Below, one piece after another: positions 21,001 through 33,000 of a DNA stretch of 34,165 nucleotides; within the stretch, counting starts at the first letter, position 1, and every line of letters begins with the position of its first letter. The DNA is taken from NCBI GenBank assembly GCA_044450345.1, contig JBIOIY010000035.1, positions 1-34,165 of the forward strand, in the 5' to 3' direction. The DNA comes from Thermodesulfovibrionales bacterium (GTDB taxonomy: Bacteria; Nitrospirota; Thermodesulfovibrionia; Thermodesulfovibrionales; UBA6898). A program made the position numbers.

Positions 21001-24000
21001 GTCTCTGCTCTCATCTTTAATCTTTTGCAGATCTCGAAACCGTATATCTTCGGGAGCGCGACTTCTACGATAATGAGGAATGGATATTCCTTCAGGGCTT
21101 TGACCATAACATCGATGCCGTCGGCAGCCGTCACGACGTTGTATCCGTGACCGCTCAGGATAGAGACTATTATTCCGAGAGTTTCAGGGTTTGAATGGGC
21201 GGCGAGTATTTTTCTGCTGTCAAGGGTCTTCTTACCCTGAGCCGCAGGCTTTTTTACCACCAGCACTGCGCTGCACTTGGGACATTTGAACTTCGATCCC
21301 TCTGCTGGGAGTTTTGATTCATCCACCTTAAGCCGTATCTTGCATTTAGGGCATATAACTACCACGTCTGGTTCCTCCTTGGCAGCCACAGTTTGATCGT
21401 AAGAAGGCCTGCGAGAAAGCCGCCCACATGGGCGAACCAGGCGGTACCCCCCTGATGCAGAATTCCCTGCGTGATCAAGCCGCTCACGAACTGTATAATA
21501 GCCCAAAATCCTATAACTATCAAGGCTGGAATCCTTATGACCTGGATGAAGAAGCCGAAGAAAACTATCGTATGGACTCTGGCGGCAGGAAAAAGAAGCA
21601 CATAAGCCCCGAGAATGCCGGCTATAGCCCCGCTTGCTCCTATCATAGGCATCTCGGAATTCGGGGATGACAGTGCATGGGCATAGGCCGCGAATATACC
21701 GCAGAAGAGATAGAAAAAAATGAACCTCAGATGTCCGAGCCTGTCTTCGATATTGTTGCCGAAAATCCAGAAATAGAGCATGTTCCCGCCTATATGCAGT
21801 AATCCGCCGTGCATAAACATCGAGGTAAACAGGGTGAGGACTGCGGGGATTGGCTGGTCTGAGTGGAAGCTCAGGATGTCCTTAGGTATCGCGCCGTAGG
21901 CGTACACCAAATATTGGGTGTCTCTCGGCGACAGGAGTTCGAGAATAAAAAAAGATATGTTTAGGGCGATAATGATAATGGTAGCGAACGGAATAGACGC
22001 TGAGGGATTGTCGTCCTTAAAGGGGATCAAAGCCGTTCCTTATGGGGTATGTTCTTTCTCAATGTGTGGGCGTCGGTCGTAAAGTAATAGCTAATATTTT
22101 ACACGACTTTATTCTTTATATCAGTTAAGGATGTGTTCAAAGAGTGCCGAAGAACAGAAATCACCTCCGGTGCGTTAATGGGAATATCTTCCAGCTCGGC
22201 CCTGATATCCCGAGTATCGAACGAAAATGGACGGTCACCCTTATCATAGTCATAGATAAACGCGAAATCTATGTCCGGGTTGCCGGCGATCAAGACGACG
22301 AGTGTCTCTGCGATATCACCCAGGGGTTTCATGTCTATGTGCGTCGGCCTGAACAGTGCCCGGACCATGGTGCCGGCCCCTGCCGTTGACTTTATGGAGA
22401 TATCGCCGCCGGTTTCCCTTGCCGCCTGGGCGAGCAGGGAAAGCCCGAGGCCGACGCTCCTTGTAGTGCGCGAGGTAAAGAAAGGATCGAGCGCTTTGTC
22501 CACCAGATCCTCCGGCATACCTTTCCCGTTGTCCTCTATCTCGACGACGAAACTGTTTTCATCCCTGCGATCGAGCAACCTTATTCCTATAAGTGTAGCG
22601 CCTGCGGCGACCGAGTTTTCGGCTATGTCCAGTATGTGAAGGGATATGTCTTCCATGTCAGGTCAGAAGATGACCCTTCTGCCGCCGGCTCCCTTGAGTG
22701 CCAGACACAGTTCTTCGAAAGTCGAGTGATGCATGAAGAGGCTGGTGGTCCTCTTCCCGATGTCCTCCAGTCTGTGCGCGTCCGATGAGGAGATCCAGGG
22801 GAGATAGCGGTAGGACGCAAATTTTTTTTTCGCCTCATCGGAATTTATCCTGCGCGATATTTCAAGAGCATCGAACCTAAGTTCCTCCGGGATGAACCCG
22901 AGCCGGCCTATGATGCCGTATCCGTCACGGTCGATATGGCTTGCGACGGCGAGGCCGTTAACGCTGTGTATAAGATCGACCACCTTGTCCACCGAAAGGT
23001 TTGTCGCCCCTATCAGCAGCCTTTTGTTGAAGCCGAGGACCTCATCGACCTCGTTTACCATGACCTGCATGCCGAAGGTGTCCTCATCGTTTGCCCCGGG
23101 CTGCAGGTTTTCATAAATGAACTCCTGCATTTTAAATACGTTCTCAATATCCCCGAAAAGGCCCAGGACATGGACCTCCTCTGAGGTGTTTATCTCCATC
23201 CCCGGAATGACGAGTATGCCCTTTTTCAGTGCGAGGTCTCTTGTGACGGAAACGTTTTCAGCGGAATTGTGGTCGCATACGGCGATGATGTTTATCCCGA
23301 GTGAAGCGGCTTTTCCCACAATGCCCCGCGGTGTCATCGACAGTTCTGCACAGGGGGAAAGGCAGGTATGGATGTGCAGATCTGCGATGAATTCTACCGG
23401 CATCTCAGGCCGAGGGTATAGAGCCTTCCTACGAGTTCAAAGGCTGAAAGAGAACTCGTCATTATCGGAATATTTTCCATCGACGCCTTCTTCAGCGTAT
23501 CGTCGGCCGGCACCCTGTTGTTGACGAGTATGATGCCGGAGATGCCTTTGAGCGATGCCACGGCGACGATGTTGAGATGGGACTGAAAGGTCACCCAGAC
23601 AGACCCCGCATTTGCGTTTGCGATGACATCCGACAGCATGTCACTCACATAGCCGCTCGTCACCTCCCGCGTCAGATCTGCTCCCGGCGTCTTTACTTCC
23701 AGCGACAGTTTTTCTATAAGGTCACAGAGTTTCATAATACCCTCACGGTTATTATAGTCCCATTTGGCAATCGCACGTAATGGGCGAAGGTACACCCCGT
23801 CACTAGCAGGATGTCTGCGGCGAAGGTCCCTCCAGATAAATCACAAACTCGAGGGTAGTCCCCTCGCCTACTACAGAAGTTAACGTCAGTTTGTCCGCGT
23901 TCCTCTTGATGTTCGGCAGTCCCATGCCCGAACCGAACCCCATCTCCCTTATATAGTCAGGCGCAGTGGAGTATCCTTCTTTCATAGCGAGGTCGATATC

Positions 24001-30000: not shown

Positions 30001-33000
30001 TTTTGGCACATAGTCTATGATGCCCAGCTCTAGTGCCTCTTTTATGGTGTCCTGCGAGGGATATCCTGTTATGATGACGATCCCGATAGAAGGCTTCATC
30101 TTTTTTATCCACCTGATGAGGGTGATGCCGTCCACCTCCGGCATCTTCAGGTCGGTGAAGACGAGGTCGTAATCGTTTTGACCTATTTTCATGATCGCTT
30201 CTCTTCCACCGAGCGCCCCTTCAACACTATACCCTTCACTCCTGAGCACCCTTTCGGCGCTTTTGATGACAACAAGCTCGTCGTCGACGATCAAAATGTT
30301 GGGTTCAGCCATAAAATCCTCCTCACCGTGTATACCGTGTATGGTTAAATTTTTAAAGCCTCGATGCGCGCAAGCCAGAGGAGCCAGCCCTCGCAGAGGT
30401 TGTCCCGCACCAGGGCGCTCATTGCAGCATTTGCCTGATGGTTGAGTTCGACTATCTTTCCGGTCATCGGAGATACGAGGTCCTCCGTCTGTCCTCCGCC
30501 GGAGAGTATCTTTGCGAAGGGCTCGCCTGCAGCCACTACCTTGAGGGTGTCCGGCAGGTCTATATACATCAACTGCCCGCTAAGGAGCCAGTATCTCACG
30601 TCGCAGCCGATCTCCCACAGCCCGTTCTTCGCAGGTCTCGCCCAGGTCCCCTCTTTATAAAAGATGACCGGGTTTTCCGTGTCCCTGAGGGACACTATCT
30701 CGTTTCTGAACTCGTCGATAAAGGCCTTCCGGAGTATCCAGCCCTTGTTGTCGAAGACCTTTTTCGCAACGTTCATCATAAACTCGGGGGTGAAGGGCTT
30801 TTCTATGAATTCGAAGGCCCCGAGTTTTACGGATTCCTTTGCGTCTTCGAGGGTGGGATACCCGGTGATGATCACCACGTCGAGCTTGGGCTGGACTAAC
30901 TTCGCCTCCCGAAGCACGGTGATGCCATTGATGTCCGGGAGCCGGATATCGGATATCAGGAGGTCAAATTCCTCGTTGGAGACCCTCTTTATCGCATCTT
31001 CCCCCCTGTCAGTGGTAATAATGGTGTACCCTTCAGCACCGAGGATCCTTTTGCAACTCAGCGTTACAACAGGGTCGTCATCTAGTACCAATATCTTCCC
31101 CTTGTTTTCCATAGACCGACCTCCTTTGTTAGGTTCGTGGCTACAACAGCAATAAGGATACCATTTTTTGAAATACTTTAAAATCAAAAAGATATGTGAC
31201 GGCGTGGGCGTCTGTCACCTGCCTTAGGCGGGCGACTGTATAGATAAAAAATACACCTGCGGCCGCAATAAAAGCCGATCGCCTACGGATGTAACGATTC
31301 AGCGGTGTATATTTTTTTTATATAGGAGAGAAGGCAGACTATAACGATGCCGTCAGAAAGTCCCAGCAGCAAGACCCCAATATTACGGAGATGTTCATCC
31401 TGCGGTTGGGCTCCTCATCGTCTACGATAAGTACCTTTTCCTTACGCATCCAGCGTCTCTCTCCCCTTGCGTAAGAGCGCGTTCGACAACACAGGCTTTG
31501 AGATAAATTCCATATCCGTCTTGAAAAAGCCCTTTGCTCTCGATGATGTCATTGGCATGTCCGATCATAATAATCGCTTTAATATCGCTTTGATTTCTTT
31601 AATGTCCTCATAGGTCTATCAGCCGCGCTTCTCGTCATCAAGGGGCGTCTCCGGGGGCACAGGAGGGTCGACTCCTTCCTTTTTTCGATCGTCTGACATT
31701 TCTACGGCAATGGCCGCAGCCTGCTCGGCCGGCATGCCTTCCGTGCGGCGCTCATACTCCTGCTCGCCTCGGTCGTCCCTCTTTCGCAGTTCCGCATCCT
31801 CACTGAGTTCTATCTCGCCTGGCAGCTCCACGCGCAGCTCCTCGATGAGCATCAGTATCGCCGCTGCGACCGGGAGTGCAAGAAGCGCCCCCACGATTCC
31901 CAGCAGCGTTGCGCCTGTGATGAGCGAAAAAAGTACGACAGAGGACGGGAGGCGCAACGCGCGACCATAGACGACGGGTACGAGCACGCGGCTTTCGAAC
32001 TCCTCATAGCCGAGCATCAGCACGAGAACGATCACGGTGACGGTCGGGCCGCGGGCCAGCGCCGCTACGACCGCGGGGCCTATCGTGAGGAAAATGCCGA
32101 TATACGGCAGCACGTCCGCAACGCCGCCGAACACGGCGATCGCCAATGCGTTCGGCACGCCGCACATTATCAGAAGAATGAACGTAAAGACAGCCATGAG
32201 CGCGCACGTTATGAGCTGTCCGCGGATATATCCGCCGACGATCGTCTCCAGGTTCATCATGACGCGGGAAAGACGGATGTGGTGCGAGCGGGGCACGATT
32301 GCGAAGAGTCCTCCGCGCAGGCGGTCCCGGTCGATCATCATATAAAGCGCCAGGAAGATGGCGCCCATGCTGTACGCGAAGACCTCAAGAACACGTGTCG
32401 AAAATGCGAATGCCAGCGCAGCGGCGGATTTCATCAGCGTATAGTATTGCATGGTGCGCAGGGACTCCGCGAAGGGGGCTGTCAGAGGATAACCGGCGAG
32501 ACGGGCCACGAGACGCGCCCGCAGCACAGGCTCCTGATCGATGAGGCTCGTCACCTGGGCCAGAAGCTCCGGGATCGTCAGGGTGACGACGAGAACGGTG
32601 ATGACCAGGAGTGTTGTGAAAACGATCGCAATGCTCAATCCCCTTCGCAGACGGCGCGCTTCGAGCCACTCGACCGCCGGGTTCAGCGTACCGATGATAA
32701 TGAGAGCCATGACGAGCACGAGAACGACCGGCAGGAGCCGGATCATTACCCACAATCCGGCGACAACGAGCACTATGGTGATCATTGTCGAGAACGAGAG
32801 CTCAAAGCGCACTACCCCCGCTGGGGCGGGACCATCTTTCGGCCGCGGCTCGTCTGATTTAGGGAGAGGCATCGTGGCGACACCTTTCCGGCGCCTGCGA
32901 CTCGTGTATACTTGGGGGCGGATAGATAAAACCTTGGGCTAGCTTATATGACAACCTATTTCCAGTCGATGGGTGAGGCGGACCGATTTGTTCAGGCAAG

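What a model noticed while it worked through the whole genome (the two positions that open the first line are those of the whole stretch)
22099..31112. Phospho-receiver domain fused to the HydC/NuoE subunit of a HydABC-type flavin module
A BfuABC (HydABC-type) electron-transfer complex has a CheY-like receiver domain fused to its [2Fe-2S] BfuC subunit (g02231), preceded by a receiver-GcvH-like protein that lacks the lipoyl lysine and followed by HndB, BfuB and a NuoG-like BfuA with no H-cluster or Mo-ligand motif, then DRTGG, RsbT-like kinase, PHP and ATPase genes. This points to direct two-component phosphorylation control of a bifurcating-type enzyme, a core trait of the order.
Evidence so far: Pfam Response_reg 6-113 + 2Fe-2S_thioredx 145-286; D10/D11, D54, T82, K104 and the four Cys kept and conserved in relatives. 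Full-length fusion matched in 49 of 61 relatives; 967 proteins at E<=1e-60, the 120 listed all with both domains. REC-BfuC, BfuB and BfuA together in 8 of 8 wider loci, REC-GcvH in 7 of 8, DRTGG/RsbT/PHP genes in 3 of 8. BfuB 52% to T. maritima HydB.
(Added by a program. Inside this text positions count along the whole contig: contig position 1 is position 1 of the stretch shown here. "Call 12" and the like, gene names such as g00115 and contig names such as C1 are that model's own, and its searches are not shown. The text may have been shortened before it was handed on; [...] marks where a part breaks off. The agent that wrote the report below was given it as the finding of a first reader that could run no searches.)

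Follow-up and report, generated by a model that had tools for sequence, protein, structure and literature searches.

The report
Phospho-switched bifurcating input for complex I
This bacterium encodes a second, NADH-plus-ferredoxin electron-input arm that most likely plugs into respiratory complex I and carries a built-in phosphorylation switch matched to a heme-containing sensor kinase, so a signal may act on the respiratory enzyme itself; this is predicted, not yet shown.

Summary
A receiver with an intact phospho-site is fused to BfuC; BfuB has every Bfu ligand; BfuA lacks the H-cluster and the Mo ligand.

(1) The third partner is most likely complex I. BfuB is sister (100/99) to BfuB genes inside nuo operons. 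BfuA's exit-cluster domain matches complex I NuoG first (top 38 of 50 PDB hits). The module lies within 20 kb of nuoD in 13 of 50 genomes and replaces nuoEFG in one.

(2) The likely kinase is on another contig (C21), beside nuoA, with a heme-c Cache sensor. It occurs in 49 of 50 fusion genomes. The exception has a decayed receiver.

The fusion is in 50 of 71 genomes of the order, so widespread but not core. The DRTGG/RsbT/PHP/ATPase genes are a general Bfu cassette. Bifurcation, docking and phosphorylation are all inferred. This genome's nuo operons have their own NuoEFG, so the module would be an alternative input. The scan noted this system before on other DNA (8 notes). Precedents: predicted Nuo-Bfu, and the mycobacterial receiver subunit of complex I.

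The parts
30345..31112 (-). Receiver + GcvH-like (lipoyl-less) protein, 255 aa; probable second target of the same kinase; role unknown
   Evidence: Pfam Response_reg 7-114, GCV_H 151-247; no Lys at the lipoyl position; helix-1 motif shared with the C21 receivers; present in 31 of 43 module loci
29386..30312 (-). REC-BfuC: receiver fused to the [2Fe-2S] NuoE/HydC subunit, 308 aa
   Evidence: top Foldseek hits are HydC/BfuC chains 7q4v_C, 7t2r_C, 7p5h_C
29001..29384 (-). HndB/HydD-like thioredoxin-fold small subunit, 127 aa
   Evidence: NCBIfam 2Fe-2S ferredoxin NF041612 E 5.6e-10, below cut-off; similar to the BfuB N-terminal domain; 59-62% identical gene at the same place in f18 nuo operons
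27094..28965 (-). BfuB (HydB/NuoF-like; FMN, NAD(H), five Fe-S clusters), 623 aa
   Evidence: Pfam domains; ligands of B1-B5 incl. C438/H525/C531/C536, T476; A202-F-M204, F282, GGPSG
24629..27097 (-). BfuA, NuoG-type, 822 aa; ligands for N1b, N4, N5, N7 and the extra A4 cluster; no Mo ligand, no H-cluster
   Evidence: TIGR01973 NuoG 471.2 bits vs cut-off 470.05; ligand columns; N5 domain best matches complex I
24236..24604 (-). DRTGG-domain protein 1 (accessory cassette)
   Evidence: Pfam DRTGG
23803..24261 (-). RsbT/SpoIIAB-like Ser/Thr kinase-type ATPase (accessory cassette)
   Evidence: HATPase_c_2; TIGR01925 below cut-off
23394..23735 (-). DRTGG-like protein 2 (accessory cassette)
   Evidence: 32% identical to DRTGG protein 1, E 3e-17; no Pfam hit of its own
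22663..23403 (-). PHP-family phosphoesterase (accessory cassette)
   Evidence: Pfam PHP + PHP_C
22099..22656 (-). Stand-alone HATPase_c protein without a HisKA domain (accessory cassette; not the cognate sensor kinase)
   Evidence: only HATPase_c families
31339..31449 (-). 36-codon frame whose first ~15 residues look like the start of a receiver domain; probable remnant of a receiver gene
   Evidence: translation; relatives often carry a lone receiver or NtrC-type gene here

Best explanation
The operon encodes an alternative input arm for respiratory complex I, orthologous in its B and C subunits to the BfuABC arm of the predicted Nuo-Bfu complex. BfuB takes electrons from NADH (at FMN) and from reduced ferredoxin. 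BfuC carries the mobile [2Fe-2S] gate. BfuA passes electrons through its His-ligated N5 cluster into NuoI/NuoD and on to quinone with proton pumping, or runs backwards to make NADH plus reduced ferredoxin. A membrane kinase encoded beside nuoA (G000:C21:37922-39505) has a heme-c Cache sensor like the Geobacter GSU0935 redox/NO sensor. It phosphorylates four receivers that share one helix-1 motif: D54 of REC-BfuC, REC-GcvH, a lone receiver and an NtrC-type activator. Phosphorylation of BfuC changes the activity of the arm or its docking on complex I, while the NtrC arm acts on transcription. SHOWN: domains, ligands, gene neighbourhoods, co-occurrence, trees. INFERRED: docking on complex I (about 0.75), phosphorylation by this kinase (about 0.85), an effect on the enzyme (about 0.75), bifurcation, the signal and the direction of electron flow.
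For: Complex I link. BfuB is sister to BfuB from nuo operons of family f18 (100/99; SH-aLRT 99). Grouping it with hydrogenase HydB is rejected (p-AU 0.00014). The BfuC domain also groups with the f18 BfuC (98/93). In 8 of 10 f18 loci the order is nuoABCD-DRTGG-RsbT-DRTGG-PHP-ATPase-BfuC(no REC)-HndB-BfuB-A-nuoH. In G196 the whole block, kinase included, sits between nuoD and nuoH in place of nuoEFG; in G142 it sits there next to a short nuoEFG. In G254, G271 and G257 it is head-to-head with a nuo operon lacking EFG. The fusion is within 20 kb of nuoD in 13 of 50 genomes from five families (my count from coordinates). All 50 have nuoD. BfuA residues 80-150 hit complex I NuoG/75-kDa chains in the first 38 of 50 PDB matches, ahead of any HydA, Fdh or Nfn chain. 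The motif HPLDCPxCDxxGECxLQ occurs in 33 of 38 module BfuA, 6 of 7 f18, 21 of 27 NuoG, 0 of 28 HydA and not in the genome's own Fdh. G196, G126 and G271 show no short NuoF among their PF01512 matches (the 429-441 aa frames read as RnfC-like by match length, inferred).

Kinase link. Only 4 of 98 receivers in the genome have helix-1 motif S[CA]xR: the two window receivers and the two beside the C21 kinase. The kinase orthologue is in 49 of the 50 fusion genomes and in 1 of the 21 others. G126 and G241 have a decayed receiver (D11N, D54Y, K104A) and no orthologue was found (best E 9e-46 and 7.5e-48, kinase core only). The kinase lies in the same 20-kb locus as the module in 19 of 43 fetched loci (8 of those were picked for linkage). 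Its sensor profile hits GSU0935 (3b42, E 4.4e-5). The heme Cys/His and an invariant Met align to GSU0935 His144 and Met60. PF21563 matches 19 of 21 members at E <= 0.1.

Precedent: a receiver is a subunit of mycobacterial complex I.
Against: In this genome the module is not linked to nuo genes. Both nuo operons (C21, C25) carry their own short NuoEFG. Of 20 nuo operons fetched from fusion-bearing genomes, 16 have their own NuoEFG. The fusion is not within 20 kb of nuoD in 37 of 50 genomes (many assemblies are fragmented). EFG-less nuo operons also occur in genomes without the module (G062, G199, G130, G068), so an EFG-less operon does not imply this partner. The BfuA tree is unresolved: Fdh, f18 A, NuoG and module BfuA form a polytomy, and whole-length BfuA scores best against Fdh alpha chains. 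The model shows no fixed contact between receiver and BfuC. G003 keeps kinase, lone receiver and REC-GcvH without the module, so the signalling part has a use of its own. The window's family has the S-A-x-R variant rather than S-C-x-R in BfuC. Related genomes are not independent, so the co-occurrence counts overstate support. No biochemistry or expression data exist.
Confidence: 0.55

Rival explanations
1. The module does feed complex I and the receiver is phosphorylated, but information flows the other way or not at all: the tethered receiver is a phosphate sink or scaffold through which the module's redox or assembly state tunes the kinase-NtrC pathway, and enzyme turnover is unaffected.
For: Flexible linker and no fixed interface in the model. 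Four receivers share one kinase motif, including a lone receiver and an NtrC-type activator. G003 keeps the signalling genes without the module. G126 and G241 keep the module with a dead receiver.
Against: A lone receiver that could serve as sink is already encoded beside the kinase. The fusion is kept with an intact site in nearly all copies. Receivers sit on NuoE-type subunits in several separate lineages (9 changes of state, at least 5 forced), which fits selection for acting on this subunit.
Confidence: 0.17
2. The module is a soluble, stand-alone Bfu complex whose third partner is something else (the selenocysteine Fdh, the NiFe hydrogenase, an Hdr-type complex, or an unknown site in the Mo-less BfuA domain), under the same kinase.
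For: Not linked to nuo in this genome, and 16 of 20 nuo operons have their own NuoEFG. Whole BfuA is most similar to Fdh alpha chains. The genome has a NiFe hydrogenase and an Fdh. In KSB1 and Zixibacteria a separate REC-BfuC fusion sits before HdrA-like genes.
Against: No catalytic partner gene recurs beside the module in 43 loci, whereas nuo genes do in 14. The N5 domain is NuoG-type. BfuB orthology is with nuo-embedded genes. The genome's Fdh has its own Bfu-type B and C genes. Short NuoEFG sets are also encoded away from nuo in G254 and G055, so distance is not against docking.
Confidence: 0.13
3. The module docks on complex I and is kinase-controlled but does not bifurcate: it works as a ferredoxin-only or NADH-only input.
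For: No Nuo-Bfu is listed as characterised in PMC9304861. In family f7, five BfuB copies have lost the NAD(H)-binding loop, and in G106, G086 and G134 this is the only REC module found. A related long NuoF in Nitrospina was read as a ferredoxin-reducing, FMN-less unit.
Against: The window's BfuB keeps all three sequence marks of bifurcating beta subunits and all B1-B5 ligands, while both short NuoFs of the genome have the non-bifurcating marks.
Confidence: 0.1
4. The fusion is a neutral joining of two neighbouring genes with no functional coupling.
For: Lone receiver genes lie directly upstream of the module in many relatives, so fusion is easy.
Against: Kept in 50 of 50 module-bearing genomes of the order. 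The receiver is almost as conserved as the Fe-S domain (mean identity 0.60 vs 0.66). It decays where the kinase is missing.
Confidence: 0.05

Closest known systems
Nuo-Bfu, the predicted 14-subunit complex I with BfuABC as input (Schut et al. 2022, PMC9304861; BfuB clades 38/39, clade 39 including Nitrospirae)
   Same: BfuBC core with all ligands; NuoG-type BfuA keeping the His-ligated A3/N5 cluster and no catalytic head; BfuB sister to nuo-embedded genes; same position in the nuo operon in G196 and G142.
   Different: Here the genes lie outside the nuo operon, beside which a separate short NuoEFG exists. BfuC carries a receiver and there is a linked heme-c kinase. The main text has no 'receiver', 'response regulator' or 'CheY'. 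Nuo-Bfu itself is a prediction.
MSMEG_2064 / Rv3143, the receiver subunit of mycobacterial complex I (PMC10068793, PMC9274095)
   Same: A two-component receiver tied to complex I and encoded next to nuoA; phosphorylation proposed to control association.
   Different: That protein is a separate orphan receiver bound at NuoB/A/C/I with no known kinase, and the authors call it unique to mycobacteria. Here the receiver is covalently part of the electron-input subunit of a bifurcating-type arm, and a cognate kinase can be named.
HydABC / NiFe-HydABCSL / NfnABC bifurcating enzymes (PDB 7t2r, 7q4v, 7p5h, 8a6t, 9n5u)
   Same: Closest solved structures of BfuB and BfuC; same B2 ligands; similar accessory DRTGG/RsbT/PHP/ATPase genes beside many hydrogenase-type loci (11 of 20 cassette loci have an H-cluster motif).
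   Different: No H-cluster, NiFe subunits or FAD domain; separate BfuB clade; none of the listed chains carries a receiver.
Geobacter heme-c sensor domains GSU0935/GSU0582 (PF21563; PMC8396549) and Cache_heme sensors (PMC12889525)
   Same: The linked kinase's sensor has a Cache fold and the aligned heme Cys/His and distal Met.
   Different: It is a histidine kinase, not a chemoreceptor, and has a second CxxCH motif in 20 of 21 orthologues. Heme binding and ligand are untested.

Membership tests
Bfu family (PMC9304861) | BfuB with FMN-binding, SLBB, NADH-4Fe4S and ferredoxin domains; BfuC NuoE-like domain; BfuA with 2Fe-2S and 4Fe-4S domains | tested here: met
   Pfam equivalents all found; the InterPro entries themselves were not scanned
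Bfu family (PMC9304861) | Five clusters in BfuB including the B2 site (C438, C531, C536, H525, and C or T at 476) and one in BfuC | tested here: met
   the numbering is colinear with 7t2r_B
Bifurcating beta subunits (PMC7311640) | A/E-x-M near the NADH site, Phe near the FMN site, GGPSG in SLBB | tested here: met
   A202, M204, F282, GGPSG; the genome's short NuoFs have T-F-K, Tyr and no GGPSG. I matched the Phe by motif; the paper's number 367 did not map by offset
Bfu family (PMC9304861) | [quoted passage not shown] | not testable with these tools
   needs enzyme assays
Nuo-Bfu (PMC9304861) | bfuABC genes in the middle of the nuo operon in place of nuoEFG | tested here: not met
   Not in this genome; met in relative G196 and in 8 of 10 f18 loci. 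Not filed as a member; works like one
Nuo-Bfu (PMC9304861) | BfuB in clade 38 or 39 | tested here: inconclusive
Nuo-Bfu / Type 3 Bfu | BfuA keeps the A3 (N5) cluster and has no catalytic domain of its own | tested here: met
   H94/C98/C101/C107 kept; NuoG-type N5 domain; no Mo ligand
FeFe-hydrogenase HydABC | H-cluster domain in the A subunit | tested here: not met
   no such domain in BfuA; no PF02906 match in the genome
Fdh-Bfu | Cys/Sec-His Mo/W ligand motif in the A subunit | tested here: not met
   G348/Y349 here; Gly at the ligand position in all module BfuA copies aligned
Canonical receiver domain | Acidic pair, phospho-Asp, Thr/Ser, Lys; five-strand five-helix fold | tested here: met
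Canonical receiver domain | Phosphorylation by a cognate kinase | not testable with these tools
   inferred
Glycine cleavage H protein | Lipoyl-lysine | tested here: not met
   Gly at that position against the genome's own H protein
Heme-c Cache/PAS sensors (PF21563) | Cache fold with heme-c Cys..Cys-His motif and distal Met (C21 kinase) | tested here: inconclusive
   Fold and residues fit, but the own protein scores 20.1 bits against a cut-off of 27, the aligned motif has four residues between the Cys, and heme binding is untested

The most novel reading that the evidence does not exclude
Complex I in these anaerobic Nitrospirota has two exchangeable input arms, a plain NADH arm (NuoEFG) and a ferredoxin/NADH bifurcating arm. 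A periplasmic heme-c redox/NO sensor kinase chooses between them within seconds by phosphorylating a receiver built into the bifurcating arm. Receivers sit on NuoE-type subunits in several separate lineages, with other Bfu enzymes as well (for example Hdr-linked ones), which would make direct phospho-gating of electron bifurcation a general, undescribed control mode.
Probability: 0.35. Interest if true: 0.88.

Novelty: new variant of a known kind. Interest (0 to 1): 0.68.

Why it matters
Electron-bifurcating enzymes are known to be gated by substrate-driven domain movement of the very subunit that carries the receiver here (PMC9304861, section 6). A signal acting on that subunit would be a new layer of control. 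The only receiver known on complex I is an orphan that its discoverers thought specific to mycobacteria. This system supplies a named kinase, a plausible signal (periplasmic redox state or NO), a natural loss-of-function lineage (G126, G241) and soluble parts that can be expressed. That makes two open questions directly testable: whether Nuo-Bfu really couples ferredoxin and NADH to quinone, and whether two-component systems switch respiratory enzymes after translation.

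Tried and rejected
Promoter and terminator scans were at chance level (12 vs 8.8 +/- 3.3; 17 vs 12.8 +/- 2.9), and a simple sigma-54 pattern found nothing upstream of the first gene. Joining contigs C21 and C35 by end overlap: no overlap found, so whether kinase and module are neighbours in this genome is unknown. BfuA tree: FastTree joined module BfuA with f18 A subunits at 0.98, but IQ-TREE with an Fdh outgroup left this unresolved; I rely on the latter. The stand-alone HATPase_c gene in the window was rejected as the cognate kinase (no HisKA domain). A motif scan in my script missed the genome's NiFe hydrogenase, which the family search found; the H-cluster labels in my trees rest on a similar crude motif. 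ESM Atlas on the GcvH-like domain gave only GcvH clusters below 0.8. Literature: searches listed no paper whose title or abstract start describes a receiver-NuoE/HydC fusion. Most subscription papers are not in the library, reviews of response-regulator output domains that I recall were not seen, and only one supplementary text file of PMC9304861 was searchable, so its figures could show such genes. PMC6606698 describes Nitrospira complex I copies with fused NuoCD, which does not match the f18 loci I read, so I could not map them to it.

Full report
**What is there.** The ten genes lie on the minus strand from 31112 to 22099 with short gaps. The gene at 29386-30312 is one 308-aa frame with a receiver (Pfam 6-113) and a NuoE/HydC [2Fe-2S] domain (145-286). 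D10, D11, D54, T82, Y101, K104 and the four Cys are invariant in 120 of 120 listed close homologues, and D54 is kept in 35 of 38 locus copies. AlphaFold folds both domains with confidence (pLDDT 90.7) but leaves them free about a linker at 126-133 (pTM 0.50). The upstream gene is a receiver plus a GcvH-like domain with Gly in place of the lipoyl Lys. Source names on homologues (Ca. Sulfobium, Thermodesulfovibrionales) place the organism in that order of Nitrospirota. The genomes I compared are unnamed, so reading family f6 as Thermodesulfovibrio-like and f18 as Nitrospira-like is my inference.

**The core is a Bfu module.** BfuB's closest solved relative is 7t2r_B. It has the ligands of all five clusters, including C438, H525, C531, C536 and T476 of the B2 site that PMC9304861 treats as the family mark. 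It has the three marks of bifurcating beta subunits given in PMC7311640 (A202/M204, F282, GGPSG), while the genome's two short NuoFs have the non-bifurcating forms. BfuA keeps the ligands of five clusters, passes the NuoG model's cut-off narrowly, and has G348/Y349 where Fdh has its metal ligand and His. The genome, 91% complete, has no FeFe-hydrogenase match.

**Distribution.** In 71 genomes of the order (70 relatives at least 95% complete, plus this one), 50 have the full-length fusion and the same 50 have a BfuA orthologue; none of 7 in f6 and none of 6 in f11 do. It also occurs in four genomes of other orders in the class. It is widespread, not universal.

**The missing partner is most likely complex I.** In 8 of 10 loci from family f18, an unfused BfuC, HndB, BfuB and A gene, preceded by the same DRTGG/RsbT/DRTGG/PHP/ATPase cassette, sit between nuoD and nuoH. 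This is the layout that PMC9304861 calls Nuo-Bfu. The window's BfuB is sister to these genes (100/99, 29 sequences; SH-aLRT 99, 50 sequences). A clade with hydrogenase HydB is rejected (p-AU 0.00014). Both groups are from one phylum, so this shows orthology rather than function. Within the order, the block replaces nuoEFG in G196, lies in the nuo operon beside a short nuoEFG in G142, and faces an EFG-less nuo operon in G254, G271 and G257. By my count, the fusion is within 20 kb of nuoD in 13 of 50 genomes from five families. The N5 domain of BfuA, which by established complex I structure passes electrons to NuoI, matches complex I chains in the first 38 of 50 PDB hits. It carries a motif seen in 33 of 38 module copies, 21 of 27 NuoG and 0 of 28 HydA.

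**Evidence against that reading.** In this genome the module is unlinked to nuo, and both nuo operons have their own NuoEFG, as do 16 of 20 nuo operons fetched from fusion-bearing genomes. EFG-less operons also occur without the module (G062, G199, G130, G068). The BfuA tree is unresolved, and whole BfuA scores best against Fdh alpha chains. So the gene-order definition of Nuo-Bfu is not met here, and I claim only that it works like one, as an alternative arm.

**A cognate kinase.** Of 98 receiver domains in the genome, only four have S[CA]xR in helix 1, a region that by established knowledge sets kinase specificity. They are the two in the window and a lone receiver and an NtrC-type activator at C21:39502-41302. 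Those two follow a HAMP-HisKA-HATPase kinase (C21:37922-39505) that is transcribed away from nuoA. Its orthologue is found in 49 of the 50 fusion genomes and in 1 of the 21 others. It lies in the module's locus in 19 of 43 fetched loci, 8 of which I picked for linkage. The exception, G126, and its congener G241 have a receiver with D11N, D54Y and K104A and no orthologue found. This is one event, not two. G003 shows the reverse: kinase, lone receiver and REC-GcvH without the module. The kinase's sensor region has a Cache fold. Its profile hits the Geobacter heme-c sensor GSU0935 (E 4.4e-5), with the heme Cys/His and an invariant Met aligned to His144 and Met60. That Met is the switchable axial ligand in the passages read from PMC8396549. 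A second CxxCH is present in 20 of 21 orthologues. The periplasmic location is inferred: my hydropathy scan flagged only the second membrane helix.

**How it most likely works.** The sensor reads periplasmic redox state or NO. The kinase phosphorylates NtrC for transcription and D54 of BfuC for an immediate effect. The effect is either on docking of the arm on complex I, as proposed for the mycobacterial receiver, or on the BfuC domain movement that gates bifurcation. Which of these, and in which direction electrons flow, is open. The complex prediction that might have located the receiver was not available. Overall confidence is 0.55. The rivals are a sink or scaffold role (0.17), a soluble enzyme with another partner (0.13), a non-bifurcating arm (0.10) and a neutral fusion (0.05).

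**What is not special.** The DRTGG/RsbT/PHP/ATPase cassette (at least 3 of 4 gene types) flanks 20 of 76 other NuoE/HydC loci from several phyla, 11 of them with an H-cluster motif nearby. It is an old companion of Bfu modules.

**Beyond this order.** Receiver-NuoE fusions occur elsewhere: 119 of 120 listed relatives of a distant fusion carry both domains. On a tree of 79 NuoE domains the receiver state changes 9 times, at least 5 forced by well-supported branches (only 150 columns). The KSB1 and Zixibacteria fusions belong to a different BfuB clade and precede HdrA-like genes. The unfused f18 genes fall inside a well-supported group with the fused Nitrospirota ones, so loss in f18 is as possible as gain in this class.

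**Literature and earlier notes.** I read PMC9304861 (abstract, section 5 whole, first parts of sections 4 and 6, term searches, one supplementary text file). I read passages of PMC10068793, PMC7311640, PMC3578206, PMC6606698 and PMC8396549, and abstracts only of PMC9274095 and PMC12889525. Ten searches listed no description of the fusion; the library lacks most subscription papers. The scan had noted this system on other genomes (8 notes). I had recorded the complex I and kinase reading before looking; those notes are not independent support, and one gave me the Rv3143 lead.

**Verdict.** A real, conserved new variant of a known kind: a Bfu arm related to Nuo-Bfu with a built-in receiver and an identifiable heme-c kinase. 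Interest 0.68.

Noticed in passing
L102:13212-14690 (G199, family f11): NuoD of an EFG-less nuo operon carries an inserted two-cluster ferredoxin domain (Pfam Fer4 at 324-373). The 492-524 aa NuoD frames of all six f11 genomes and G266 suggest it is shared: a possible built-in ferredoxin entry to complex I.
   Followed up: partly
L037:7007-8881, L047, L074, L044, L045 (family f7): BfuB of the receiver module has lost the NAD(H)-binding loop in five copies. G217 and G244 keep a second, intact copy. Possibly a ferredoxin-only arm.
   Followed up: partly
L077:5635-6105 (G106, family f7): A stand-alone cyclic-nucleotide-binding gene sits between nuoD and nuoE; a gene of the same size is at this place in three more f7 operons. 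Another possible signal input to complex I.
   Followed up: partly
L070:4332-5183 (G142): A receiver is fused to the RsbT-like kinase inside the nuo operon, tying the two-component pathway to the Ser/Thr cassette.
   Followed up: no
L056:6255-7229 (family f18): The RsbT-like kinase inside the nuo operon is fused to two CBS domains, a possible adenine-nucleotide sensor.
   Followed up: no
L116:930-10672, L117:5023-10106: KSB1 and Zixibacteria REC-BfuC fusions precede a short BfuA and HdrA-like genes, with a CCG-domain gene in L116; the L117 receiver has Glu at the phospho-site.
   Followed up: partly
L204:7425-10270 (G003): Kinase, lone receiver and REC-GcvH are kept without the Bfu genes, so REC-GcvH may have a role of its own.
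   Followed up: no
window 31339-31449 (-): Short frame that starts like a receiver domain and then degenerates; probable remnant.
   Followed up: partly
window 18360-22030 (-): Rhomboid protease, a zinc-ribbon plus degenerate receiver protein (no acidic pair or Lys), GroES and GroEL follow the operon; the rhomboid, zinc-ribbon and GroEL genes follow the module in the same order in five f10 genomes.
   Followed up: no
G000:C21:41480-42070: A small antitoxin/toxin-like gene pair (Phd/RelE type by eye, not scanned) follows the NtrC gene near the contig end.
   Followed up: no
L140:4808-5761, L154:8476-9444, L165:7951-8907: NuoE-type domains fused behind a membrane helix and a 2Fe-2S-like domain (NqrF-like by eye): another kind of BfuC fusion.
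   Followed up: no
G000:C26:18818-25146: A second Bfu-type set: BfuC, a 1038-aa BfuB fused to a GltD/Nfn-like FAD domain, and a formate dehydrogenase with an in-frame TGA at the ligand site.
   Followed up: partly
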